Shown one piece after another: positions 1-12,736 of a stretch of DNA of 64,000 nt. Both the position numbers and the translations under genes were made by a program. Each line of letters opens with the position of its first letter. Within the stretch, counting starts at the first letter, position 1. Source of the DNA: Gynurincola endophyticus (GTDB lineage Bacteria > Bacteroidota > Bacteroidia > Chitinophagales > Chitinophagaceae); assembly GCF_003991195.1 (NCBI RefSeq), contig NZ_RCWL01000005.1, positions 197,078 to 261,077 on the forward strand. The letters are read 5' to 3'. The notes below the pieces were generated by a model, which was not told the origin of the DNA, ran no database searches, and saw only the letters and a list, made by a program, of their open reading frames with translations.

Positions 1-9
1 GGCCAGCCT

Positions 10-2691
10 TTGAGCAATTCAGATTTTGAGTTCTCTATGGCTGATACCAATAGTGGCAGTATTACTTTCACCGAGGCAGGTGTGGGTAACAATCTTGCAC
101 TTACGGAAGAAGAATTGCTCACAAACCTCAACAAAGTTCAGACGGAAAATGAGCTAAGAGAAGACGAAATATCACCTGCCATTGAAAAGCTTTGGTACAA
201 TGAAGACGCATCCGTAAAAGGCGTTCTGGAAGGTAAAACGGTAGTAACCGAGTTTCCCAACTACTCCGTAGAAATGGAAACCGGAACAGGCAAAACCTAT
301 GTGTATCTCCGTTCTGTTTACGAACTCAACAAGGTGTATGGCTTTAAGAAGTTTGTAATTGTAGTTCCTTCCGTGGCTATCCGTGAAGGAGTTATCAAAT
401 CCCTCCAAATCACCTTCGATCACTTTCAGGAAATCTACGAAAATCAACCTGCGGATTACAAGGTCTATGATTCAGGCCGTTTGTCAGACTTGGGCAATTT
501 TGCCAAAAGCAACGCCATACAAATTTTAGTAATCAATATTGATTCCTTCACCAAAGATGCCAACGTCATCAATCAGGTAAGAGAATCAGGCATAAAGCCC
601 ATAGAGTACATTCAGAAATCCAATCCGATTGTGATTATAGACGAGCCGCAGAATATGGAAACGGATATTCGAAAGCGAGCTATTGCCAATCTAAACCCCC
701 TATTTACACTGAGGTATTCTGCTACACACAAAAACCTTTACAACCTGGTCTATAAGCTTGACCCGGTGAAGGCGTATGATTTAGGCTTGGTAAAGCAAAT
801 TGAGGTTGATTCCGTTATAGCCCGAAACGATAGTTCAGGAGCCTTTATTAGTGTAGATGGTTTCCGTATGGCTAAGAAATCAGTAACTGCCAAGGTTTCA
901 ATATTTGTCAATGAAAAAACAGGTGTACAGAAGAAACAAGTTTCCGCAAATGTTGGAGACGACCTTTATAAGCTTTCTAAAAATTGGGACATATACAAGG
1001 ACGGCTATGTAATCAATGAGATAGATGCCGACAATCAGTTCATTGAATTTTCAAGTGGTCAAATTGTCTATCAGGGTCAAGCCGTAGGGGGTCTTACCGA
1101 CCAGATACTTAGGGAAATGGTAGATGCCACGGTAGAGAACCACTTCAAGAAGGAGAAAGAGTTGCAGGGCAAAGGAATCAAGGTCTTATCAATCTTTTTT
1201 ATCGACCGTGTGGCAAACTACCGTGAGTATGATGATAGCGGAAACACCGTACAGGGGAAGTTTGCCGAATGGTTTGAAGAAAGCTATACCAAATGGCAAA
1301 GTATGCCTGCTTACAGGGGTTTAATGAGCTTCAAAGCTAAAGACGTGCATGATGGATATTTCAGCCAGGATAAAGCAGGTAAATACAAAGACACCAAAGA
1401 AACTCGAACTACCAAAGCTGATGATGATACCTTCAACCTAATCATGCGAGATAAGGAAAGGCTATTGGATGAAAAAGTGCCTCTCCGATTCATTTTCAGT
1501 CACTCCGCATTGCGTGAAGGTTGGGACAATCCCAATGTATTCCAAATCTGTACGCTTAACGAAACCAAGTCGGATATAAAGAAACGACAGGAAATCGGAA
1601 GAGGTCTCCGCTTATGCGTTGACCAAACCGGAGCAAGAAACCTTGACCGTGCTATCAATAGGCTTACTGTCATCGCCAATGAAGCCTATGAATCATTCTC
1701 TAAAGCCTTACAAAAGGAAATAGAGGAAGATTGTGGCGTGAAGTTCGAAGGCCGTATCAAAAATGCAAGAGCAAGAACAAGCGTAAAACTCAAAGACAAA
1801 TGGATGGAGGATGCGCTATTCCTTGAGCTTTGGGAGAAAATAAGAGCTAAAACAGAATATAAAGTTGATTATAGCACCGAAGAGCTAATTGCAAATTGTG
1901 TGGCTGCATTGCAAGCAATGCCCCCTATCGAACGTCCTGTAATCTACCGTGAAAAGAATGTAGCAAAATTCGTTAGGGATGCCAAAGGCAAGCTGATTGA
2001 ATTAGGCGGAGAGCAGAAAGGCTCAAAGGAGAAAATGGTAAAGGACACCAATTATGAAATCCCTGATTTCATTGCTTATATCCAGTCTAAAACAGAGCTT
2101 ACCCGAGATACCATTACCCAAATCGTATTGAACTCAAACCGATTGGGCGAAATCTTTAACAACCCTCAGTTATTCATGGATAGCGTGGTACGCATCATCA
2201 AACATGAATTTGACCGAATCAAGATCAATGGCATCCAATATGAAAAGATTGCCGGACAGGTCTATGAAATGAAGTTGTTTGAATCCGCAGAAATTGAGCA
2301 GTATTTAGAAAACCTGATAGAGGTTAAGAAACAAGCCAAAACGCTTTACAACTATGTGGCCATTGATTCACTCAGTTCACCGGAACGCAGGTTTGCCGAA
2401 GATTGCGAAAACAGGGATGATATACTTTTCTATGTAAAGCTTCCAAGAACATTTGTGGTCAAAACTCCAATTGGTCCCTACAATCCTGATTGGGCATTGA
2501 TTAAGAAAGAGGACGGTGAAGAAACCAAAATCTACTTTGTAGCTGAAACCAAAGACCCTAAAGCAGCAAAAGACCGCACCTTATTAAGAGATAGCGAGCG
2601 ATTGAAAATAGCATGTGCAGAAAAGCATTTTGAAGTAATAGATCATGTGAATTACCGTGTAGTTGGCTCAGTGAGTGATTTGAAAGTTTGA
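10..2691 (+). CDS. Type III restriction Res-like SF2 helicase fused to C-terminal PD-(D/E)xK nuclease (probably 5-prime partial; frame open to window edge)
   Basis: Walker A METGTGKTYV; motif II IIDEPQN; motif VI QEIGRGLRL; C-terminal PD-(D/E)xK YNPDWAL...VAETK; reading frame open upstream of position 10, listed start is TTG. Confidence 0.7.
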   Translation: MSNSDFEFSMADTNSGSITFTEAGVGNNLALTEEELLTNLNKVQTENELREDEISPAIEKLWYNEDASVKGVLEGKTVVTEFPNYSVEMETGTGKTYVYLRSVYELNKVYGFKKFVIVVPSVAIREGVIKSLQITFDHFQEIYENQPADYKVYDSGRLSDLGNFAKSNAIQILVINIDSFTKDANVINQVRESGIKPIEYIQKSNPIVIIDEPQNMETDIRKRAIANLNPLFTLRYSATHKNLYNLVYKLDPVKAYDLGLVKQIEVDSVIARNDSSGAFISVDGFRMAKKSVTAKVSIFVNEKTGVQKKQVSANVGDDLYKLSKNWDIYKDGYVINEIDADNQFIEFSSGQIVYQGQAVGGLTDQILREMVDATVENHFKKEKELQGKGIKVLSIFFIDRVANYREYDDSGNTVQGKFAEWFEESYTKWQSMPAYRGLMSFKAKDVHDGYFSQDKAGKYKDTKETRTTKADDDTFNLIMRDKERLLDEKVPLRFIFSHSALREGWDNPNVFQICTLNETKSDIKKRQEIGRGLRLCVDQTGARNLDRAINRLTVIANEAYESFSKALQKEIEEDCGVKFEGRIKNARARTSVKLKDKWMEDALFLELWEKIRAKTEYKVDYSTEELIANCVAALQAMPPIERPVIYREKNVAKFVRDAKGKLIELGGEQKGSKEKMVKDTNYEIPDFIAYIQSKTELTRDTITQIVLNSNRLGEIFNNPQLFMDSVVRIIKHEFDRIKINGIQYEKIAGQVYEMKLFESAEIEQYLENLIEVKKQAKTLYNYVAIDSLSSPERRFAEDCENRDDILFYVKLPRTFVVKTPIGPYNPDWALIKKEDGEETKIYFVAETKDPKAAKDRTLLRDSERLKIACAEKHFEVIDHVNYRVVGSVSDLKV

Positions 2692-5600
2692 AACAACCAG
2701 CATTGACCCGTTTTGATATGGCAACAGAGAAACAATTTTTAACCAGGCTACAGGAGATTAAGCAAAGAGACGTGGAAGTTTTGCTTAAAAAGGCGTACCG
2801 TGGTATTTGGGAAACAGCAATTAAGAAGTATTCCGACAGTGCCCACTTCGTTTATGAATTGCTGCAGAACGCAGATGATACAAAAGCCACTTGGGTTGAT
2901 TTTCGCCTTGAAGAAGACGGACTTTGGTTTAAGCACAATGGCTCTGTTCGCTTCTCCATATCAGACCCGGACAATGAAGATGAAGATTCAGAAACTGGCA
3001 ACCTTGGCCATATAAACGCCATTACTTCCATTGGCAATTCAACCAAGATTGATGAACAAAAAATCGGAAAGTTTGGAATAGGCTTCAAAGCGGTTTTTGC
3101 TTACAGCATGTCTCCGCACATTTATGATGATAATTTCAACTTCAAACTGGAAAACTACATTGTGCCCAATGAAATTGAATCCTTGAATGGCCAGAGGGCA
3201 GCAGGTGAAACAGTTTTCTACTTCCCTTTTAATCACATTTCAAAGTCGCCAGAGGATGCCTATACCGAGATTGAGGACAAATTAGATTCACTCTTTCAAC
3301 CTATTTTATTCCTTACCAATCTTCAAAAGATAACTTGGAAATCCAATGAGAAAGAAGGCATCTATTCAAAGCGAGCATTAAAAACAGAACAGTTCGACAA
3401 TATCCGAGCTGAGTTAATGGAGGTTGAAAGCGTAGAAAATGAAGTCAATAAAAAAGAATTGATATGGTTATTCTCTACTGGCGTTTCACACAAGCAGCTT
3501 AAATCCCACCACCGCATCTATGTGGGTTTCTTTGTTCTCGATCAAAAGGAACTGGAAACTGGATATACCTATGAAGCATTTTGCTTCTTTCCAACCAAAG
3601 AAGAAACCAAGTTAGGATTTGTTATTCAGGCCCCATTCCTTTTGACAGATAGTAGAGAGGGAATAAAAGCAGGTGAGCAATGGAATGTGGAAATCATGCA
3701 GCTTGCGGCAAAGCTTGCTGCCAATTCTTTACCGATACTCAAAACCATTGGTGAAAGGGATAAAACCTACCTACTCAACGACAGTATTTTAGAACTGATT
3801 CCATACAAGGAAAGTGATTTTTCAGACGTAGGTAGTAAAGCGAAAATTTCATTCAAACCCTTCTATACCGAAATCCTAAAGAAGTTTCAAGCCGACCAAT
3901 TACTGCCTGGCAGAAATGGGAAGTACTACAAAACTGCAAAGTCATATTGGGCATCAGATCCCGAGTTAGCAGAACTCTTTTCCGACCAACAAATCAGCAA
4001 GCTAATGGGCAACCCAGATTCAGGATTGGTGTTCGTAAGCAAGGGACAGAAGCAACTTAACCAAGCGAATAAGACCTTAGAAAGCTATATCAATTCAATC
4101 ATTAACGACACCTTAGACCCTAAAAAACTTCTGAGGAGAATTGATGCTTCTTTCATGGAAGCACAATCAGATGAATGGTTATTGAAATTCTATGCCTATT
4201 TGGGAGGTCGAAAATCTCTTTGGGACGATAAAGAGAAGCTTGCTCAAAAACGACCAATCCTGCTAAATCAAGACAGAAAGGCCGTTGTACCCTTCAATGA
4301 TGATTTAACAGCACCAAATATTTTTCTACCTTCTGAAAGGGCAACAAGCTACGATACCATTTACAAGCCATTTACAGAGGATGAAGAAGCCCTGGACTTC
4401 TTCAAGGGTTTGGGTATTGGTAAACCCGACTTACGAGCTGAAATCTTCAAGACCATAATTCCGCAATACAAGAATGGGTTTAACTATGATGATAAGGACA
4501 AAATCTTAGCCCACTTCGATTCTTTCTTATCCTACTATGATGCTTGCCCGGCTTCTCTCCAAAGTGACTATCTCGATAAGCTCCAAGAGACTTGTTTCAT
4601 AGCATCCCGAAAAGCCAGTGACCCTGATACAATTTACTTTTGCTTCCCTGAGTCCGTTTACATTCCAAGTGAAAAGCTCAACAAATACTTTGCTAACGCA
4701 AAGGAGGTATATATTTTGGATGAAGATTACTATTTGGATTTTATCCATAGTCCTCGCAAAAGCTCGTTCTATTCATTTCTTTCGGCCTTAGGTTGCAGCA
4801 ATCAACCCCGTTTGATAGATAGGGAATTAGAATCCAACTACGAGAACAAGGAAAGATTTGGTCTTGAAGAAATTGAAGTATCACAAACCTATGTCTCTAA
4901 TCAAACTATTACAGATACCATTCTGGAAGGAATAGAGGAAGCAGTATCAAACATCAATCCCGAACTATCAGCCCTGATTTGGGAATACATGTTATTCCAT
5001 GTACATGGTAAGTCGTCTTACTCGCTCGAATCAAGTATCATGGGCAACTTTCGATACGTCCCCAAATGGAACCAATATCCAAAGTCCCAAAAGTTTGAAT
5101 CCACACTATCATCTATTCTCAAAAATGATAAATGGCTATATGATACAGAGGGCAATTTAAAATCAGCATCAGAAATTCAAAGAGAAGACCTAAACGAAAT
5201 CTACACTTCACAGGATTTTGACATTTCTGCATTCCTTGAATTTTTAGGAATTGAAAGCCCTGAAGATGAATTAGACCTCTCCGAGGAACAACGAGCAGCT
5301 TACCTGCTTGGCAAAAAACTACAAGAGGAAGGAATCACTGAAGAAGAATTAGCAGAGGCATTGAGCATGATAAAGGCTAAAAAGAAGTCCGCAGGTGCTC
5401 AGGGCAATCCCAATACTGATGAAGAAGAAGACTTCATGGATGATGCCATTGAAGACACCTTAGACCGCCTTAAAAAGGGAATCAAAAAGAAGCGAAAGGC
5501 CAGAGCTGAAAATCAAGATGAAGAAACTCAAAAAGAAGAGCAGGAATCTCCTGAATCAATGGCAGATCAGGATGAATACACAAAACCTTCTGTTGACCTT

Positions 5601-7535
5601 CAAAAGAAGATTGACAAGCTAAAGGAACAGACAGAAGCTCAAATTGAAGACCTTACCCGAATTGAGAAACTGAACGAGATTGTTGATGAATCTGAAATGT
5701 ATTCCTATGCTTGGTTCAAAGCTTTGCTTGAACTGGAATACCTGAGTAGTTCAGAATCCAACACTCAAGGAAAAGAAATATCAATCCAATTCACTAAAGC
5801 AGAAAAAGAACCGGGTACAGAAAGGACATTGATTCTCAAGCATCCGAACAGATATATCCCTCAATCCATTGAGGATATTGGAGACCTGCAAATTCGCTTG
5901 TATCATGGTGAAGAATCCAAGACCGTAACCGTGGAGGTTGTGAGTGTTAAAGAATATACCCTTCGGGCAAAGCTGAAAAAGTCTGCCGACATTTCAGAGA
6001 TTGACCTATCTAAGGTAAACCGAATAGTCATTGACATAAAGAATCCTGTTTTCATTCTTGAAGAACTTAGAAAAGCCTTCAATCAACTTGGCTTAGAGGA
6101 TGATTATAATCTACAGCAAAACCTTCCAGAGGATATTCGATTCATATTTGGCCCTCCCGGTACAGGTAAAACAACCTATCTCGCAACCAATGAGATTATA
6201 CCTCTTATGCAGCAGGAAGAAAACCTCAAAGTGCTAGTACTTACACCAACCAATAAATCAGCAGACGTTCTTACAAAGCGTATTATTGAAAAAATGGGTG
6301 ATGATGAAACCTATCACCATTGGCTTCTCCGCTTTGGAAATACAAGTGATGAATCACTGGAAAATAGCTCGGTTGTAATTGATAAAGCGTTCGACATTAG
6401 AACCAAGCCCAAGAATACCACAATAACCACAATTGCGAGATTTGCTTACGACTATTTCCAACCCGAAATCCATGATGAACGCCTGCACCTGAAATTTCTT
6501 GAATGGGACTACATTATCATTGATGAAGCTTCAATGGTGAACTTGGCCAGTATAGCTTACGTCCTTTATCAAAAGCCAGATGCAAAATTTGTAATAGCAG
6601 GAGATCCTTTCCAGATTCAACCAATTACACTTATTGACCATTGGAAGGATATGAATATCTACAGCATGGTCAATCTCGACAGATTCGTAGAGCCAACAAC
6701 TGTTCCCCATGAATTTGAAATAGTTAACCTACGCAAGCAATATAGGGCAGTTCCCACCATTGGAAATGTTTTCAGTCACTTCACTTACAATGGCATTCTC
6801 GAACACCATAGAACAAGTACAGAGCAAAAGCCATTGACCATATCCGGCTTTGATTTCAAGGACATTAACATTATCAAATTTCCAGTAGCAAAGTTTGAAA
6901 GCATTTACAAGCCAAATACGCTTAACAAATCAAACTATCAGGTCTATTCAGCTTTGTTCACGGTTGAGTTCGCCCAGTCACTTGCTTTTCAGATTCAATC
7001 AAGCCACAAAGACAAATTCAGAATTGGAATCATTTGTCCTTACAAGGCTCAAGCTACTCTAATTGAAAAGCTCCTTGCTCAACAATTTGAAGACACTGAT
7101 AAGGTAGAAATCCTTATCGGGACTATTCACGGCTTCCAAGGTGATGAATGTGATATTATCATTTCGATTTTTAACCCGCCATACTCGATAAGCAAACACC
7201 CGGGTATGTTCCTCAATAAGCAGAACATACTCAATGTATCCATTAGTCGGGCAAGAGATTATTTATTCATCATAATGCCAGACGACAACACGCAGGATAT
7301 TGAGAACCTATATAAAATCAAGAAAATAGAAAGATTGATTTATCGCCATGCTCCTAACAATCACTCAGTTTACGAATCCACGGAGATTGAGGAAATTATG
7401 TTTGGCAGCGATACCTACATTTATGACAACTCCTTCGCTACTTCTCACCAAACTGTAAATGTGTATTCAAAACCAGAGCGGAAGTATGAAGTCCGTTGTG
7501 AAGAGGTAGCTGTTGACGTTCAAATTAAACAATGA
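2688..7535 (+). CDS. Large multidomain protein: N-terminal sacsin/GHKL-type (HATPase_c-like) ATPase, acidic/basic coiled-coil linker, C-terminal Upf1/DNA2-like SF1B helicase (AAA_11/AAA_12-like)
   Basis: N-box ELLQNADD and G2-box GKFGIGFKAVF near N-terminus; SF1B motifs FIFGPPGTGKTT (I), IIIDEASMV (II), VIAGDPFQIQP (III), LRKQYRAVP (IV), IGIICPYKAQ (V), GTIHGFQGDECDIII (VI); start overlaps stop of upstream gene by 4 bp (TTG at 2688; alternative ATG at 2718). Confidence 0.7.
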   Translation: MKQPALTRFDMATEKQFLTRLQEIKQRDVEVLLKKAYRGIWETAIKKYSDSAHFVYELLQNADDTKATWVDFRLEEDGLWFKHNGSVRFSISDPDNEDEDSETGNLGHINAITSIGNSTKIDEQKIGKFGIGFKAVFAYSMSPHIYDDNFNFKLENYIVPNEIESLNGQRAAGETVFYFPFNHISKSPEDAYTEIEDKLDSLFQPILFLTNLQKITWKSNEKEGIYSKRALKTEQFDNIRAELMEVESVENEVNKKELIWLFSTGVSHKQLKSHHRIYVGFFVLDQKELETGYTYEAFCFFPTKEETKLGFVIQAPFLLTDSREGIKAGEQWNVEIMQLAAKLAANSLPILKTIGERDKTYLLNDSILELIPYKESDFSDVGSKAKISFKPFYTEILKKFQADQLLPGRNGKYYKTAKSYWASDPELAELFSDQQISKLMGNPDSGLVFVSKGQKQLNQANKTLESYINSIINDTLDPKKLLRRIDASFMEAQSDEWLLKFYAYLGGRKSLWDDKEKLAQKRPILLNQDRKAVVPFNDDLTAPNIFLPSERATSYDTIYKPFTEDEEALDFFKGLGIGKPDLRAEIFKTIIPQYKNGFNYDDKDKILAHFDSFLSYYDACPASLQSDYLDKLQETCFIASRKASDPDTIYFCFPESVYIPSEKLNKYFANAKEVYILDEDYYLDFIHSPRKSSFYSFLSALGCSNQPRLIDRELESNYENKERFGLEEIEVSQTYVSNQTITDTILEGIEEAVSNINPELSALIWEYMLFHVHGKSSYSLESSIMGNFRYVPKWNQYPKSQKFESTLSSILKNDKWLYDTEGNLKSASEIQREDLNEIYTSQDFDISAFLEFLGIESPEDELDLSEEQRAAYLLGKKLQEEGITEEELAEALSMIKAKKKSAGAQGNPNTDEEEDFMDDAIEDTLDRLKKGIKKKRKARAENQDEETQKEEQESPESMADQDEYTKPSVDLQKKIDKLKEQTEAQIEDLTRIEKLNEIVDESEMYSYAWFKALLELEYLSSSESNTQGKEISIQFTKAEKEPGTERTLILKHPNRYIPQSIEDIGDLQIRLYHGEESKTVTVEVVSVKEYTLRAKLKKSADISEIDLSKVNRIVIDIKNPVFILEELRKAFNQLGLEDDYNLQQNLPEDIRFIFGPPGTGKTTYLATNEIIPLMQQEENLKVLVLTPTNKSADVLTKRIIEKMGDDETYHHWLLRFGNTSDESLENSSVVIDKAFDIRTKPKNTTITTIARFAYDYFQPEIHDERLHLKFLEWDYIIIDEASMVNLASIAYVLYQKPDAKFVIAGDPFQIQPITLIDHWKDMNIYSMVNLDRFVEPTTVPHEFEIVNLRKQYRAVPTIGNVFSHFTYNGILEHHRTSTEQKPLTISGFDFKDINIIKFPVAKFESIYKPNTLNKSNYQVYSALFTVEFAQSLAFQIQSSHKDKFRIGIICPYKAQATLIEKLLAQQFEDTDKVEILIGTIHGFQGDECDIIISIFNPPYSISKHPGMFLNKQNILNVSISRARDYLFIIMPDDNTQDIENLYKIKKIERLIYRHAPNNHSVYESTEIEEIMFGSDTYIYDNSFATSHQTVNVYSKPERKYEVRCEEVAVDVQIKQ

Positions 7536-7595
7536 TTAAACACCCGTTAAAAGAAAAAATGAAAACTTAATATCGAATTAAAACCCTCGTTCATA

Positions 7596-9695
7596 ATGGC
7601 AAAGCACTGTTTCAACATACTAACATTCAATCATCCGAGCGAATCGCTCACCTTCTATTTTTCCGAGAAGGAGCAAGAAGGAACTACACGAATTTATCAT
7701 TCATTGGTTCCTGATGAGGTCATTGATAAGTATGCAGAACAGGAACATTACTACACTTCATTTTGCCAAGAAAAAGAAGGGTTTATTCCGGTTACTAAGC
7801 CAACTACACCAACCTATGAGAAAATCACTAACGAAGAAGGAATTGAAAAATCAGTTCAGGTTTCCAATTCCGCATTGTCTTCATCCATTCTCAAACGTTA
7901 CTACAATTCACTAATTCATAACCATTTCAAGTCAAAGGGCTGTTTGGTCAAACCTAACTTTGTCAGCGATACAGAAGTTTGGTTGCCAAGCGATACACAA
8001 GACAAGGAAGGGATATACAAAACCTTTGACCGTTTTTCATTGAAGGTGCAGTTCAGAACAGTTTCCAATAGTCTTGAATTATTGGTCACATTTGAAGGCA
8101 AGTCAAAGATTTTTAAAACTCCTGTATCAGAACTTTTTGAAGAAGTACCTGTAAGGGCATTCAATTGGGTGGTCTATGAAAAAGGACTACACCGCTTTGA
8201 TGAATTGCCAGATGATGGGAAAAGAAATTACGATAAGGTTTATCCTGTTTGGAATTTTGAAATAAGGGATGCTTTGCACCAGGAGACAGAAGCCCCGGAC
8301 AAGACGAACAAATACAGGAAGTTCAAAACGGCCATTGATAAATTTTACAGGGAGCAGCTTAATGCAGCCGAGTTCAAGGCCATCATTCCGCTTTCATCTA
8401 AAGGGTTTATTACAGTTGATGAAGTCCGCATCGGTTCAATTGAAAAGTCCAGCAACAAACTCGTATTTGGAAATCAAAAGCTGCACCATGTACCGTATTA
8501 TGGCATTACAGAAAATGGTCCTTTCGAGTTAAGCCCATCATCAAAGATTCATTTCTTTTTTATTCTCCATGAAGATGATAGAGAAGTAGCTGCCAAGATT
8601 CACAACTACTTTAATGGCAAACTCAACGGCTTTAGAGGGCTATCAAAATTCATTCATACACCGTATCATCCAGATAAAGAACTCGCAATCTATTTCAAGG
8701 ATAGGGATAACCCTTGGCCGGAACTGTATGAGCAAATCAATGACAAGGACTTTGATACCGACATTCAGCACATAGCTATTTACATTTCCCCAATCAGCAA
8801 GAATGTTCCAGTCAAATCTCAGAGGTTGATTTACTACAAGCTGAAAGAGCTACTATTGAAAAAAGGAGTTTCCTCTCAGGTGATAGATCCTGACAAAGTG
8901 ATTACCAACGACAAGTATCATTTCAGCTTGCCAAACATCGCAATAGCCATTCTCGCAAAGCTCAATGGCACTCCGTGGAGGTTGGACACAAAGCTGAAGA
9001 ATGAATTGATTGTTGGAGTTGGAGCATTCAAGCACACAGAAGTTGACATCCAATATATCGGCAGTGCTTTCAGTTTCTCCAATACAGGGAAATTCAACCG
9101 ATTTGAATGCTTTCAGAAAGACCAAACAAAAGAGTTGGCAGGTTCAATTCTAAGAGCAGTTAAAGACTATGTGAATGTAAATACAGGAATCAGAAGGCTT
9201 GTAATTCACTTCTACAAAGACATGAGTAGAGAGGAAGTAGAACCGATTGAGAACGGCCTGAAAGAATTGGACTTGAACATTCCGGTCTTTATCGTCACCA
9301 TCAACAAAACGGAATCATCCGATATTGTTGCCTTTGATTTGGACTGGAAAGATTTGATGCCCGTAAGTGGCACTTTTATCAAATTAGGCTACAACAGATT
9401 TCTACTTTTCAACAATACCAGGTATTCAGCATCAGAGTTCAATTTCAATGATGGATTTTCATTTCCAGTAAAGCTCAAGATAAATTGCTCCAATCCTGAA
9501 TTGGTTGATGATTACAAAACAGTAAAGGAGCTTATCGATCAAGTATATCAGTTCAGTCGCATGTACTGGAAGTCAGTAAGACAACAAAATTTGCCCGTTA
9601 CAATCAAGTACCCTGAAATGGTTGCAGAAATGCTCCCTTACTTTGAAGGCAACGAGATTCCTGATTACGGTAAAGACAATCTTTGGTTCTTATGA
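7596..9695 (+). CDS. Prokaryotic Argonaute-like protein, long form with catalytically inactive PIWI (long-B-like)
   Basis: MID motif LIYYKLKELLLKKGVSSQVI...NIAIAILAKLNGTPWRL (Y-x3-K...Q...K-LNG, the Argonaute 5-prime-phosphate pocket / KLGG motif); position of first catalytic Asp reads IVGVGAF instead of GxDV; ~380 aa N-terminal region compatible with N-L1-PAZ-L2. Confidence 0.65.
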   Translation: MAKHCFNILTFNHPSESLTFYFSEKEQEGTTRIYHSLVPDEVIDKYAEQEHYYTSFCQEKEGFIPVTKPTTPTYEKITNEEGIEKSVQVSNSALSSSILKRYYNSLIHNHFKSKGCLVKPNFVSDTEVWLPSDTQDKEGIYKTFDRFSLKVQFRTVSNSLELLVTFEGKSKIFKTPVSELFEEVPVRAFNWVVYEKGLHRFDELPDDGKRNYDKVYPVWNFEIRDALHQETEAPDKTNKYRKFKTAIDKFYREQLNAAEFKAIIPLSSKGFITVDEVRIGSIEKSSNKLVFGNQKLHHVPYYGITENGPFELSPSSKIHFFFILHEDDREVAAKIHNYFNGKLNGFRGLSKFIHTPYHPDKELAIYFKDRDNPWPELYEQINDKDFDTDIQHIAIYISPISKNVPVKSQRLIYYKLKELLLKKGVSSQVIDPDKVITNDKYHFSLPNIAIAILAKLNGTPWRLDTKLKNELIVGVGAFKHTEVDIQYIGSAFSFSNTGKFNRFECFQKDQTKELAGSILRAVKDYVNVNTGIRRLVIHFYKDMSREEVEPIENGLKELDLNIPVFIVTINKTESSDIVAFDLDWKDLMPVSGTFIKLGYNRFLLFNNTRYSASEFNFNDGFSFPVKLKINCSNPELVDDYKTVKELIDQVYQFSRMYWKSVRQQNLPVTIKYPEMVAEMLPYFEGNEIPDYGKDNLWFL

Positions 9696-9944
9696 TGATT
9701 ACGGAACACCCACCGCACATTTGCCAACCCGCACCAATGTGCTTCCAGTAGGTTCATTCCGGTCGTTCGTTCCTCACTCTCTTCATTCACCCACTTCCAG
9801 CACCGCACAGCAAGAGTAGCCCGTTATTCCATTCCGCTGCGCTACATTCCATACCGTGCCACACTTGCTTTTCCCAACGCACCCCCCAACGCAGGTAAAG
9901 CGGTGTTCGTCAGTCGTTCCGTTTTGTTCCGCAAAAACATATCT

Positions 9945-9981
9945 GCAAGGGTAAAATGCACTCCCTTCGGTCGCCCTTGCA
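9945..9981. repeat. Hairpin element, 8-bp stem TGCAAGGG/CCCTTGCA with 21-nt loop containing CCCTTCGG
   Basis: Read directly: tgcaagggtaaaatgcactcccttcggtcgcccttgca. Confidence 0.6.
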
Positions 9982-10927
9982 CATACCGTTCACTTACCAG
10001 TTCGTTTGCGCTCCAGTAGGTGCTCACTCACTGCCGTTCACTTGTTTTGCTTCACACACTCTCTCCTTCCTCACTCGCAGCTATTTCATCCCCCCAAACC
10101 CCTTCTATGGTGTTCGCTAAACTCACAATATTTTTTATTGGGGGTCTGCCGCTGCTTATTGTTTTTGCTCGCCTGCGGGTCGCTGCGGGCTGATCGGGCT
10201 GTCATGTTTTTTGCTTTCCCCTATGTGCTTTCAGTCGCTTCGTTTCAGTCATTCGTTCCTCATTCCTTCAACTCAGCCACTTTCAGCACCGCTCACAAGC
10301 GTAGCTCTTTCACTACACTACACGAGCCAACGTACCGTCATTCCGCAATCTGCCTGCAATCCTTCTCCAATGGGTTTGTACTCCAATCAAAAAATACAAA
10401 CCCAACCAATGCTATTGCAGGCAGTTATTGCTCCATTCCCTTCCAATAATCGTTTCGTTTCGTTCAGTCGCTACCCTTGCCTTTGCCGACCCTGATGCAA
10501 AAAAACACGCCAGCCCTGCCGTAAACGGTAGGCGTCTGCCGCCCTCATTCTTCGGGCTTTTGCAGCCACCACCCTTGCTCCGCTCGCAGGCGGCTCGCAG
10601 AAATGGCTTCGCCTTGGTTTACCTGCGTTTCCCGCTTTTTTCCCACCGCACAATTGAGTACATTCGTTAACAATGAAAGAACTATTTGAAGACTTTTATT
10701 ATTTAATATTCCCCAGGGATGAAGAAGGTGTTTACAAGACAGACACCGACAGTCCTTTATGGGTTAAAATTCTGGTTGTTGCTTTCATCGGGTTTATGTG
10801 TTTCATGCTTGCAATAGCATCTTAATAGAAACAGATTCCAGTTTTCTAATCCTTCAATTCGACCTTAACTCGGGTCAATAAATAACTCAAACATAAAGCA
10901 AAGTTACAGGCGTGCGGATGCGAGAGC

Positions 10928-11003
10928 TGCAAGGGTTCGCTTCGCCTGTTTGGGAAAAAAATCTCCACCCTACGGGTAGTATTTTTTTCCCACAGCCCTT
11001 GCA
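10928..11003. repeat. Composite nested-hairpin element, copy 1 (outer TGCAAGGG/CCCTTGCA stem; inner GGGAAAAAAA...TTTTTTTCCC stem; central CCCTACGGG mini-hairpin)
   Basis: tgcaagggttcgcttcgcctgtttgggaaaaaaatctccaccctacgggtagtatttttttcccacagcccttgca. Confidence 0.6.
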
Positions 11004-11291
11004 TCAATCGCACCGTCCTGTAGTGTGAGGGTATTATGTTTAAGTTATTATTCAGAGTCCGTTTCGGCAGCCGGTGGTTGTTGGCGGGCGTTCGCACCTC
11101 AGGTCGTCCGTTCCATGCAGGCGTTCAGCGTTTCGGTATCACTGATTATACGCTGCGTGTCTTTTGGTTCGAGTTGTGCCTTTCAGAGCTTCCTTTTTAG
11201 GGGGCTCTTTTTTTTACTCGTACAGGGAAAATTTTAAAAAGAGAATAGCAAAGATAGGCGGGTTCGCACATGCCCAACGCACTTTCGGACA

Positions 11292-11364
11292 GTCAAGGTC
11301 AAGCCCTACGGGTTTTGAAAAAAATCTCTACCCGAAGGGTAGTATTTTTTCCAAAAACCTTGAC
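11292..11364. repeat. Composite nested-hairpin element, copy 2 (outer GTCAAGG/CCTTGAC; inner TTTTGAAAAAAA...TTTTTTCCAAAA; central CTACCC-GAA-GGGTAG)
   Basis: gtcaaggtcaagccctacgggttttgaaaaaaatctctacccgaagggtagtattttttccaaaaaccttgac; same orientation as copy 1, ~365 bp downstream. Confidence 0.6.
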
Positions 11365-11430
11365 AGCCGAGCCTCACCCGCCTGAAAGACAGCTTTCTCT
11401 TTTCTTTTTTTCCCTTTTTTCTTTTCTCTT

Positions 11431-11916
11431 TTGAAAAAATATATGCGAAGCGCAGCGAGCAAAACTTTAATGGCTCACTGTATGAAATCGTTTCGTATCA
11501 AAACACACCGACTGGAAAGCAGCTACCAACAGCCGCACTTCTTTATCCTGAATAAAGGATTGAACAGCGGGAAACCGCTCAACCAAGCTTGCCCGAATTG
11601 CTTTGTTTGCCTCACCGACAACCAAGAGGACAGGGAATTTCTCTTTTGGCTATGCTTTGGATTGTGGAGGTCAAAATCATTTCACTATCTCCTGAAAGGC
11701 TCAGTGATTCCATTTGTGACTATTGATGAAATCCGAAAGCTGATTCGGGAAAGCTCCACCAAAGCAAGCTGCAAAGACCAGGCATTTCAGAAGGCAATTC
11801 AAGCCCTTCAACTACTCGATACCAACGAGCAAAAAATCAAGGTCACACTAAAGATGATTGATACTGCCAGACAAGCCATATTTTATGACTTGATGAAAGA
11901 AACAGGAGCAGGATAG
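11431..11916 (+). CDS. Hypothetical protein
   Basis: 161-aa ORF preceded by polypyrimidine tract; no recognisable motifs; true start uncertain. Confidence 0.3.
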   Translation: MKKYMRSAASKTLMAHCMKSFRIKTHRLESSYQQPHFFILNKGLNSGKPLNQACPNCFVCLTDNQEDREFLFWLCFGLWRSKSFHYLLKGSVIPFVTIDEIRKLIRESSTKASCKDQAFQKAIQALQLLDTNEQKIKVTLKMIDTARQAIFYDLMKETGAG

Positions 11917-12094
11917 AATCCTGCACTGCCAAAAAAACAGGGCAACAAAAGCAAAATAAAGCACACTACCGCAACAGCACCCAAGAGAGAACTACCGCTT
12001 AATTCTTGAAGTAATTTAGTTGGCGAAGGGCAAATCCATGGTAAGTCCGTGTCAAGTCCAAGCAAATGTTTAACTCCTTAAAAATCGTAAAGAG

Positions 12095-12736
12095 ATGGGA
12101 AAAATTAATCAAGGTATTCTCGGTGGCGTATCAGGCCAAGTAGGGAATGTAATCGGTGGAACTTGGAAGGGCATCGATTACCTGCGCATCAAACCTTCCA
12201 GTGTAGCGAACCCAAGAACTGAAGGTCAGGTTGACCAGCGTTCTAAATTTTCAACTGTCCTAAGGTTCTTGCAACCAATGACAGACTTCCTGAGAGTCGG
12301 TTTCAAGTTGTATGCAAACCGTATGACCCAATTCAATGCGGCCATGTCTTACAACCTGAATAATGCAGTTACCGGAGCTTATCCAAACTTCATGATTGAC
12401 TATGCAAGTGCATTGGTCACTCGTGGTAACTTGACAGGTGCGGCCAACGGTGCAGCCACTTCTCCAAGTGCTGGAAACGTAGAAGCAACCTGGACAGACA
12501 ACTCAGGAAGCGGAAGTGCTCAAGCAACAGACAAAGCTCTGATTGCTCTTCTGAACACTACCCGAGGGGAAGCAGTGTTCACCACTGCGGGACCAGCAAG
12601 GTCTGCCGGATCAGCGACCATTCCAGTGCCTTCTGAGTACTCAGGAGAAGACGTTGAAGTCTTCTTAGGTTTTGTATCAGAAGACGGAATTAAAGTCGCC
12701 AAAAGCGTTTATTTAGGCTCTGTAACAGTTGCGTAA
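12095..12736 (+). CDS. Hypothetical protein (resembles a Bacteroidota-restricted conserved family with MGKINQGILGG...NPRTEGQ N-terminus; Gly/Ser/Ala-rich C-terminal half)
   Basis: 213-aa ORF with good coding appearance, followed by an intrinsic terminator. Confidence 0.5.
   Translation: MGKINQGILGGVSGQVGNVIGGTWKGIDYLRIKPSSVANPRTEGQVDQRSKFSTVLRFLQPMTDFLRVGFKLYANRMTQFNAAMSYNLNNAVTGAYPNFMIDYASALVTRGNLTGAANGAATSPSAGNVEATWTDNSGSGSAQATDKALIALLNTTRGEAVFTTAGPARSAGSATIPVPSEYSGEDVEVFLGFVSEDGIKVAKSVYLGSVTVA

What the first reader, a model, noticed from the sequence alone, without database searches (positions are those of the whole stretch)
10..2691. Type III Res-like helicase-nuclease without a visible Mod partner, fused into the pAgo operon
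The motifs TGTGKT, DEPQ and QEIGRGLRL and the C-terminal PD-D/ExK place this protein with type III Res and DdmD-like helicase-nucleases. No methyltransferase gene lies between it and the pAgo genes. Its stop codon overlaps the next gene start, which argues for translational coupling into the pAgo cassette rather than an independent R-M unit. The 5-prime end runs off the window, so a mod gene could still lie upstream.
Basis: partly seen in the sequence, partly recalled or inferred. Interest (0 to 1): 0.55.

Follow-up and report, generated by a model that had tools for sequence, protein, structure and literature searches.

The report
Ordinary type III restriction subunit beside pAgo
The gene is the cutting subunit of a normal type III restriction-modification system whose methylase partner lies just off the window edge, and it sits next to an Argonaute gene because both are defence cargo on the same mobile element.

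Summary
The ORF and its motifs are real: TGTGKT, DEPQ, QEIGRGLRL and a C-terminal PD...ETK nuclease. It is a type III Res subunit (PADLOC REase_III 1e-282; EcoP15I Res 6e-54). The window cuts off only its first 24 codons.

A public contig identical to the window over 17,535 nt supplies the upstream DNA. The order is HTH regulator, Mod, a 254-aa ORF, then Res, with gaps of 3-6 nt. Mod is a type III methyltransferase (6e-186) with DPPY before FxGxG. Among relatives with enough upstream sequence, 69 of 70 have mod upstream on the same strand.

The claimed stop/start overlap depends on a TTG at 2688. Gene callers and homologues instead start the next gene at 2718 or 2703.

The next gene is a 1605-aa GHKL(sacsin)-SF1 helicase, which stands alone in Firmicutes and an archaeon. 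The pAgo is a catalytically inactive long-B type.

Nucleotide homology breaks at the gene borders, giving three modules: Res, helicase, pAgo. Of 80 pAgo relatives, some 97% identical, none has this Res or helicase next to it. Many instead carry type I, II or other type III R-M systems at the same spot on a shared mobile-element backbone.

Verdict: a complete, ordinary type III R-M stacked in a defence hotspot. Low interest.

The parts
1..2691 (+). Res subunit of a type III R-M system. It is 920 aa in full; the first 24 codons lie upstream of the window and the start is a GTG 72 nt before base 1.
   Evidence: PADLOC REase_III 9.9e-283; EcoP15I Res 4zcf_C, 6.3e-54.
280..297 (+). SF2 helicase motif I (Walker A), TGTGKT.
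640..651 (+). SF2 helicase motif II, DEPQ (DExx box).
1588..1614 (+). SF2 helicase motif VI, QEIGRGLRL.
2338..2664 (+). C-terminal PD-(D/E)xK endonuclease domain (Pfam RE_endonuc, residues 768-876 of the 884-aa query). It includes PD at 2485-2490 and ETK at 2545-2553.
   Evidence: (4.9e-34).
2692..2717 (+). Spacer between Res and the next gene: 26 nt if the start is ATG 2718, 11 nt if it is TTG 2703. It contains no terminator-like site.
2718..7535 (+). Separate module: a 1605-aa protein. The N-terminus is a sacsin-type GHKL ATPase region (PADLOC TmtA-like, residues 38-825). The C-terminus is a Upf1-like SF1 helicase (AAA_11/AAA_12, MkoA-like). It is not part of the R-M enzyme.
7596..9695 (+). 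Separate module: a long-B-type pAgo of 699 aa. Catalytic positions are replaced (GVGAF, HFYK).
   Evidence: PADLOC pAgo 8.7e-291; AfAgo, RsAgo.

Best explanation
Window 1-2691 encodes the restriction (Res) subunit of a complete type III restriction-modification operon. The rest of the operon lies just upstream of the window, in this order: an XRE-type HTH regulator, Mod, one variable 254-aa ORF, then Res. Mod is a beta-class N6-adenine methyltransferase.

The mechanism is inferred by homology to EcoP15I/EcoP1I and was not tested here. Mod would recognise a short asymmetric site and methylate one strand. Res would bind Mod and use ATP hydrolysis by its SF2 motor to switch into long-range sliding. 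Its C-terminal PD-(D/E)xK domain would cut DNA when complexes from two inversely oriented unmethylated sites meet.

The operon is one of many alternative R-M cargo modules at one position in a family of Bacteroidota integrative mobile elements. That position lies between the element's primase/HTH genes and a resident long-B pAgo gene.

The GHKL-SF1 helicase and the pAgo downstream are separate defence modules. They may be transcribed together with Res, but they are not biochemical partners of it.
For: 1. Identity of Res. PADLOC REase_III 9.9e-283. EcoP15I Res 6.3e-54 is the only meaningful PDB match. Pfam finds ResIII plus RE_endonuc. All motifs are intact.

2. Mod partner. L081 is identical to the window over 17,535 nt with 0 mismatches. 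It carries HTH (4094-4384), Mod (4391-6439), X (6444-7208) and Res (7212-9974). Mod scores 6.2e-186 against PADLOC MTase_III. It has SIDPPYN before FAGSGTT.

3. Conservation. 69 of 70 Res relatives with at least 2.5 kb upstream have mod upstream on the same strand.

4. Modularity. L081 against L082 and L002 shares one block running from the Res start to the helicase end (window -70 to 7563 and 7533; 95% and 91% identity), with pAgo excluded. Against L001 the shared block is Res alone (-73 to 2691). Against L086 homology begins at 7594, 2 nt before the pAgo ATG.

5. Independent assortment. Of 80 pAgo relatives (40-97% identity), none has the helicase next to pAgo, and none has this Res adjacent. 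Only distant Res-like genes occur, several kb away, in about 5 loci. pAgo is only 37-47% identical in loci whose Res is 81-85% identical.

6. Hotspot. In pAgo loci with at least 6 kb upstream (n=40), type I R-M is present in 14 and type III in 4. The primase/HTH backbone abuts pAgo directly in 5. The remaining 17 include type II (PstI-like) and type IIG-like systems.

7. The helicase is stand-alone in Desulfosporosinus, Bacillus and Methanimicrococcus.
Against: Res, the helicase and pAgo share a strand, with 26-nt and 60-nt spacers and no terminator-like site between them. The only clean Bacteroidetes-type -7 promoter motif in an intergenic region lies upstream of the HTH gene. Co-expression is therefore likely.

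Res and the helicase travel as one block in at least L082 and L002. Their divergence from the window copies runs in parallel: Res 97 to 79%, helicase about 95 to 60%.

The pAgo is catalytically inactive and has no recognised effector gene downstream. An SF2 helicase-nuclease, either HsdR or Res, is often the gene right before it. This resembles the ddmD-ddmE logic.

No biochemistry or methylome data were available.
Confidence: 0.85

Rival explanations
1. Res is a DdmD-like helicase-nuclease effector that the inactive pAgo recruits to guide-matched DNA, and the three genes form one functional cassette.
For: The pAgo lacks the catalytic tetrad and has no known effector downstream. DdmDE sets a precedent for an inactive pAgo paired with an SF2 helicase plus PD-(D/E)xK nuclease. 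Res lies directly upstream of a pAgo in L010, L052 and L055. Ryazansky 2018 lists type III restriction endonucleases among the orthogroups of proteins encoded in pAgo operons.
Against: Res has its own Mod in 69 of 70 relatives and in the source genome. There is no sequence similarity to DdmD. pAgo copies 97% identical occur without Res. Homology breakpoints separate Res from pAgo. Res and pAgo do not co-diverge. The slot upstream of pAgo also holds type I and type II R-M systems, or nothing at all. Known long-B effectors are encoded downstream of pAgo.
Confidence: 0.04
2. Res, or the whole type III R-M, works together with the adjacent GHKL-SF1 helicase as a composite system. The helicase would be an accessory or back-up module tied to restriction. 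pAgo remains independent.
For: Res and the helicase move as one block with a conserved 25-26-nt spacer. The helicase sits immediately after Res in L002, L006, L009, L011, L012, L014, L016, L081 and L082. Identities of the two proteins to the window copies fall in parallel.
Against: Closely related Res genes (96%, 91%, 85% identity; L001, L003, L005) lack the helicase. Full-length helicase homologues in Firmicutes and an archaeon have no type III R-M next to them. Physical linkage on a mobile element explains the co-divergence without any functional tie.
Confidence: 0.15
3. R-M systems of any type and this pAgo clade cooperate generically, for example if restriction products or stalled complexes feed pAgo. 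The recurrent R-M-then-pAgo order would then be selected rather than a neutral hotspot.
For: By the cluster-based count alone, at least 18 of 40 pAgo loci with enough upstream DNA have an R-M system just upstream on the same strand. Spot checks found more (types I, II, IIG-like and III). Ryazansky 2018 likewise lists R-M components among the proteins encoded in pAgo operons.
Against: In five loci pAgo sits directly after the backbone HTH with no R-M. The same slot also holds non-R-M genes such as RhuM, GmrSD and SNF2 helicases. No control set of the same elements lacking pAgo was examined. Long-B pAgos studied so far use RNA guides, which gives restriction fragments no obvious role.
Confidence: 0.1

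Closest known systems
EcoP15I / EcoP1I-type type III R-M Res subunit (PDB 4ZCF chain C)
   Same: It has an N-terminal SF2 ATPase with motifs I, II and VI, and a C-terminal PD-(D/E)xK nuclease. phmmer gives 6.3e-54 over residues 112-601. A beta-class Mod is encoded upstream on the same strand.
   Different: One variable ORF of 254 aa sits between mod and res. In relatives the mod-res gap ranges from 27 nt to 7 kb and holds unrelated inserts. The score against NCBIfam PRK15483 is 310.9, below the 564 cut-off, so this is not an equivalog of the enterobacterial enzymes. Its Mod lacks the TypeIII_RM_meth N-terminal domain that another type III Mod in this data set has.
DdmD of the Vibrio cholerae DdmDE system
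   Same: The general architecture matches: an SF2 helicase plus a C-terminal PD-(D/E)xK nuclease, encoded upstream of a catalytically inactive pAgo.
   Different: There is no detectable sequence similarity. The DdmDE preprint describes Arch and INS domains and compares the DdmD structure with the DinG helicase. This protein has a cognate methyltransferase and does not co-occur obligately with pAgo. The pAgo here is long-B-like, whereas DdmE belongs to the 'long-C' clade.
Long-B pAgo systems BPAN/BPAS/BPAM (Song et al. 2023, PMC10620215)
   Same: The neighbouring pAgo is a catalytically inactive long pAgo, as in those systems.
   Different: Their effectors are encoded downstream of pAgo in 2-3-gene operons and co-evolve with it. 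Res is upstream, separated from pAgo by a 4.8-kb gene, and does not co-evolve with it. This pAgo fits that paper's 'other' or 'none' categories (associated proteins outside the four named orthogroups, or none).
Restriction-linked ORFs embedded in R-M loci, such as rloA/rloB and prrC in type I loci (recalled from memory, not retrieved)
   Same: Unrelated accessory genes are inserted between the R-M subunit genes. L010 carries an AAA_21 ATPase plus DUF4276 between mod and res.
   Different: Here the host locus is type III. The insert in the source genome (254 aa) matches no Pfam, PADLOC or NCBIfam model.

Membership tests
Type III R-M Res subunit | SF2 helicase/ATPase core with motifs I, II and VI | tested here: met
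   TGTGKT, DEPQ and QEIGRGLRL are present. Pfam ResIII 3e-14.
Type III R-M Res subunit | C-terminal PD-(D/E)xK endonuclease domain | tested here: met
   Pfam RE_endonuc 4.9e-34 at residues 768-876. PD...ETK is intact.
Type III R-M Res subunit | Sequence homology to characterised Res proteins | tested here: met
   EcoP15I Res 4zcf_C 6.3e-54. PADLOC REase_III 9.9e-283. The NCBIfam PRK15483 score of 310.9 is below the equivalog cut-off of 564, so it is a family member but not an equivalog.
Type III R-M Res subunit | Cognate beta-class N6-adenine Mod encoded upstream on the same strand | tested here: met
   L081 is identical to the window. Mod lies at L081 4391-6439 and scores 6.2e-186 against MTase_III. 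DPPY precedes FxGxG. One 254-aa ORF intervenes.
Type III R-M Res subunit | mod-res linkage conserved among relatives | tested here: met
   69 of 70 loci with at least 2.5 kb upstream.
Type III R-M Res subunit | ATP-dependent cleavage that needs two inversely oriented unmethylated sites, plus hemimethylation by Mod | not testable with these tools
   This needs biochemistry or a methylome.
DdmD-like pAgo-partner helicase-nuclease | Homology to DdmD | tested here: not met
   phmmer against PDB at E<=0.01 returns only EcoP15I Res and a spurious designed protein. The preprint reports DdmD structures 9EZX and 9EZY as deposited. I did not verify that they are in the local PDB copy.
DdmD-like pAgo-partner helicase-nuclease | Obligate co-occurrence with a pAgo and no methyltransferase partner | tested here: not met
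   pAgo lies within 10 kb in 6 of 80 Res loci. Mod is present in 69 of 70. Of 80 pAgo relatives, none has this Res adjacent.
Long-B pAgo effector (bAgaN/S/M-type) | Encoded immediately downstream of pAgo in a 2-3-gene operon | tested here: not met
   Res is upstream and separated by the 1605-aa gene. The criterion comes from PMC10620215.
Long-B pAgo effector (bAgaN/S/M-type) | Co-evolution with the pAgo | tested here: not met
   Res is 81-85% identical where pAgo is 37-47%. Homology breakpoints fall at gene borders.

The most novel reading that the evidence does not exclude
This effector-less, catalytically inactive long-B pAgo clade sits time after time directly downstream of an R-M system. 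The preceding gene is often the R-M's SF2 helicase-nuclease subunit, Res or HsdR. The most novel reading is that the pAgo exploits whichever R-M motor-nuclease is encoded upstream, in a DdmDE-like way, or otherwise cooperates with restriction. The HTH-[R-M]-pAgo array would then be a functional unit and not a neutral cargo hotspot.
Probability: 0.07. Interest if true: 0.75.

Novelty: new member of a known kind. Interest (0 to 1): 0.15.

Why it matters
As found, it matters little: it is one more uncharacterised type III R-M enzyme on a Bacteroidota mobile element.

It does illustrate a scanning pitfall. A window edge can hide the partner gene, and same-strand tight packing in defence islands mimics operon fusion.

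The context gives one usable lead. A family of integrative elements carries a slot between a primase/HTH backbone and a long-B pAgo that collects R-M systems of every type. This gives a likely source for the R-M (and RND efflux) genes that Ryazansky et al. 2018 listed among the proteins encoded in pAgo operons. It also offers a natural test bed for R-M/pAgo synergy.

Tried and rejected
- Exact-protein look-ups with the truncated Res and with the pAgo found nothing. The look-up succeeded only with the helicase started at ATG 2718.
- The ORF between mod and res (L081 6444-7208) has no Pfam, PADLOC or NCBIfam match, even at E<=1. It is unrelated to the same-sized ORF in L082. It could not be sent to structure prediction because it lies outside the window.
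- A literature search for Tiamat/TmtA returned nothing relevant, and pAgo plus sacsin likewise.
- An Rfam scan of the gene-free 1.7 kb after pAgo found nothing.
- The sigma-70 promoter scan was no better than shuffled sequence, as expected for Bacteroidota.
- I considered that the HTH is a dedicated R-M controller protein. This remains undecided, because the same HTH family directly precedes pAgo in loci without any R-M.
- I considered that the helicase is the pAgo's effector. I rejected this as the main model because 0 of 80 pAgo relatives have it adjacent and it occurs alone in other phyla.
Full report
**Observation**

Frame 1 of the + strand is open from base 1 to a TGA at 2689-2691. The translated protein carries TGTGKT (nt 280-297), DEPQ (640-651), QEIGRGLRL (1588-1614) and a C-terminal PD...ETK (2485-2490 and 2545-2553). 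Pfam finds ResIII (3e-14), DEAD (6.7e-07) and the RE_endonuc domain (4.9e-34).

Homologues are 919-920 aa, whereas the window holds 896 codons. The gene therefore really does run off the 5' edge, by 24 codons.

The claim that the stop overlaps the next start holds only for a TTG at 2688. The assembly's gene call uses ATG 2718. The NCBI protein of 1610 aa implies TTG 2703. Five homologues share the ATG, 25-26 nt after the Res stop.

**What lies upstream**

An exact-protein look-up with the downstream gene returned a 159.8-kb contig (L081). It is identical to the window over the whole 17,535-nt overlap, with no mismatches; window base 1 equals L081 position 7284.

Upstream of Res (L081 7212-9974, GTG start) lie three genes:
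- a 254-aa ORF at 6444-7208;
- a 682-aa methyltransferase at 4391-6439;
- a 96-aa XRE-type HTH at 4094-4384.

The gaps between these genes are 3-6 nt.

The methyltransferase scores 6.2e-186 against the PADLOC type III MTase model. It shows SIDPPYN before FAGSGTT, the beta-class motif order. Res scores 9.9e-283 against PADLOC REase_III. Its only meaningful PDB match is EcoP15I Res (6.3e-54).

That check gives the refuting answer.

**Relatives anchored on Res**

A scan of one genome per species returned 80 loci. Of the 70 with at least 2.5 kb upstream, 69 have a Mod homologue upstream on the same strand.

The mod-res gap runs from 27 nt to 7 kb, with a median near 1 kb. It holds unrelated inserts:
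- several unrelated families of small ORFs;
- an AAA_21 ATPase plus DUF4276 pair (L010);
- a GNAT acetyltransferase (L055).

These are documented. The ORF between mod and res is thus variable cargo and not a core subunit.

Downstream of Res, the neighbours vary widely: integrases, an OLD-family ATPase, a DUF5655 protein, the large helicase, a pAgo, or unrelated genes.

**The two downstream genes**

Window 2718-7535 encodes a 1605-aa protein. Its N-terminal region is a sacsin-type GHKL ATPase, matching PADLOC TmtA models at 7e-57 over residues 38-825. Its C-terminal part is a Upf1-like SF1 helicase (AAA_11/AAA_12; MkoA 2.8e-30; UPF1 structures about 6e-10).

Full-length homologues at 44-45% identity occur in Desulfosporosinus, Bacillus toyonensis and the archaeon Methanimicrococcus. 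None has a type III R-M or a pAgo beside it. This looks like a self-contained single-gene unit.

Window 7596-9695 encodes a 699-aa pAgo (PADLOC 8.7e-291). Its closest solved relatives are AfAgo and RsAgo. The catalytic positions read GVGAF and HFYK, so it is an inactive, long-B-like pAgo.

**Is Res tied to pAgo?**

Three tests all say no.

1. Nucleotide mosaic.
 - Against a Sphingobacterium ICE (L082) and Siphonobacter (L002), L081 shares one block from the Res start to the helicase end. It spans window -70 to 7563 and 7533, at 95% and 91% identity, and stops before pAgo.
 - Against Algoriphagus (L001), the block is Res alone (-73 to 2691).
 - Against a pAgo locus (L086), homology starts at 7594, 2 nt before the pAgo ATG.

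2. A pAgo-anchored metagenome scan (80 loci, 40-97% identity). No locus has the helicase next to pAgo, and none has this Res adjacent. Copies 97% identical to the window's pAgo (L083, L084) sit in other contexts.

3. Divergence. Where Res is 81-85% identical, pAgo is only 37-47% identical.

**What the neighbourhood is**

The pAgo loci share a mobile-element backbone: integrase, DUF6617, a small HTH_17 protein, a BT4734-like protein, a DUF3987/PriCT primase and an XRE HTH. After the HTH comes a variable slot, and then pAgo.

Among 40 loci with at least 6 kb upstream, the cluster-based count gave these contents for the slot:

| Contents of the slot | Loci |
|---|---|
| Type I R-M (HsdM/S/R, often with a YgjP-like gene) | 14 |
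| Type III R-M | 4 |
| Nothing; backbone gene directly before pAgo | 5 |
| Other genes | 17 |

The 'other' group includes a PstI-like type II system, a type IIG-like enzyme with HsdS, RhuM, GmrSD and SNF2 helicases.

Ryazansky et al. 2018 listed type III restriction endonucleases, SAM methyltransferases, HsdS and RND efflux pumps among the proteins encoded in pAgo operons. The architecture seen here gives a likely source for those entries. The pump genes are the next cargo after pAgo in several loci.

**Expression**

No terminator-like site lies between Res, the helicase and pAgo on the + strand. A Bacteroidetes-type -7 motif (TAAATTTG) sits 30 nt upstream of the HTH start. Another lies inside the helicase 3' end at window 7397. 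Co-transcription of the array is plausible, but this is consensus-level evidence only.

**Mechanism**

This section is inferred from established knowledge of EcoP15I/EcoP1I and was not tested here. Mod would methylate one strand of an asymmetric site. A Mod-Res complex on unmethylated DNA would hydrolyse ATP to enter a sliding state. It would cut near a site when it meets a second complex at an inversely oriented site. Every sequence feature needed for this is intact.

**Comparison and novelty**

The protein is a member of the type III Res family, though below the NCBIfam equivalog cut-off for the enterobacterial enzymes. It is not DdmD-like by sequence. It also fails the criteria for long-B pAgo effectors, which are encoded downstream and co-evolve with their pAgo. 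It is a new, uncharacterised member of a known kind.

Two residual questions remain:
- Does the tight Res-helicase linkage in Bacteroidota have a functional basis? I put this at about 0.15.
- Is the recurrent R-M-then-pAgo order selected? I put generic cooperation at about 0.1 and a DdmDE-like use of the R-M motor-nuclease at about 0.04-0.07.

**Verdict**

The feature is ordinary, and its interest is low.

Noticed in passing
window 9696-11430: The 1.7 kb after pAgo has no called gene, yet it is 72-98% conserved at the nucleotide level (mostly 84-97%) in many other pAgo loci, at variable distances from pAgo. It contains a 76-nt direct repeat (9734-9809 and 10220-10295, 78% identical). It also has two copies of a 34-nt hairpin flanked by A and T runs (10954-10987 and 11317-11350). 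There is no Rfam match and no codon periodicity in the substitutions. It may be an element end, an oriT-like region or an unknown RNA.
   Followed up: partly
window 2718-7535: This 1605-aa protein combines a sacsin-type GHKL ATPase (TmtA/Tiamat-like) with a Upf1-like SF1 helicase (Mokosh MkoA-like). Full-length homologues at 44-45% identity occur stand-alone in Firmicutes and an archaeon, some within defence islands. I retrieved no functional study of it.
   Followed up: partly
L081 6444-7208 (window -839 to -75); also L001-L020 between mod and res: The ORF slot between mod and res is hypervariable. It holds at least five unrelated small-ORF families, an AAA_21 plus DUF4276 pair, or a GNAT. 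The source genome's 254-aa ORF matches no profile and carries a D...ELK motif that hints at a PD-(D/E)xK fold.
   Followed up: partly
L083-L162 (pAgo-anchored loci): This long-B pAgo clade sits on a shared integrative-element backbone: integrase, DUF6617, BT4734-like, DUF3987 primase and HTH. A variable slot just upstream of pAgo is filled mostly by R-M systems of types I, II, IIG-like and III. In 5 loci a backbone gene directly precedes pAgo (the HTH in L091, L092 and L096).
   Followed up: partly
L081 3991-5037 vs L082 6920-7966: HTH plus the first ~650 nt of mod are 81% identical between two elements. The rest of mod and the following ORF are unrelated, while res is 95% identical. This implies recombination that swaps the Mod specificity region under a conserved Res.
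   Followed up: no
L002 12746-17499: In Siphonobacter the GHKL-SF1 helicase is split into two ORFs of 841 and 722 aa. This may be a frameshift, a pseudogene or a genuine split.
   Followed up: no
L099 12135-17621: A different 1828-aa sacsin/GHKL-domain protein lies immediately downstream of a pAgo that is 68% identical to the window's. This is a second, independent GHKL-pAgo adjacency.
   Followed up: no
L083, L089, L090, L093 downstream of pAgo; L010, L052, L055: In L083, L089, L090 and L093, a Fur-family regulator ORF overlapping the pAgo stop is followed by a further small ORF (DUF6660-like in L090) and then an RND efflux pump fused to an outer-membrane (OEP) domain. In L010, L052 and L055 a DUF6660 protein and the same type of pump follow pAgo directly. 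[quoted passage not shown] The window lacks these genes.
   Followed up: partly
window 11431-12736: The DUF6943 and DUF6266 genes recur downstream of pAgo in several related loci (clusters c12 and c10). They appear to be part of the same mobile-element backbone.
   Followed up: no
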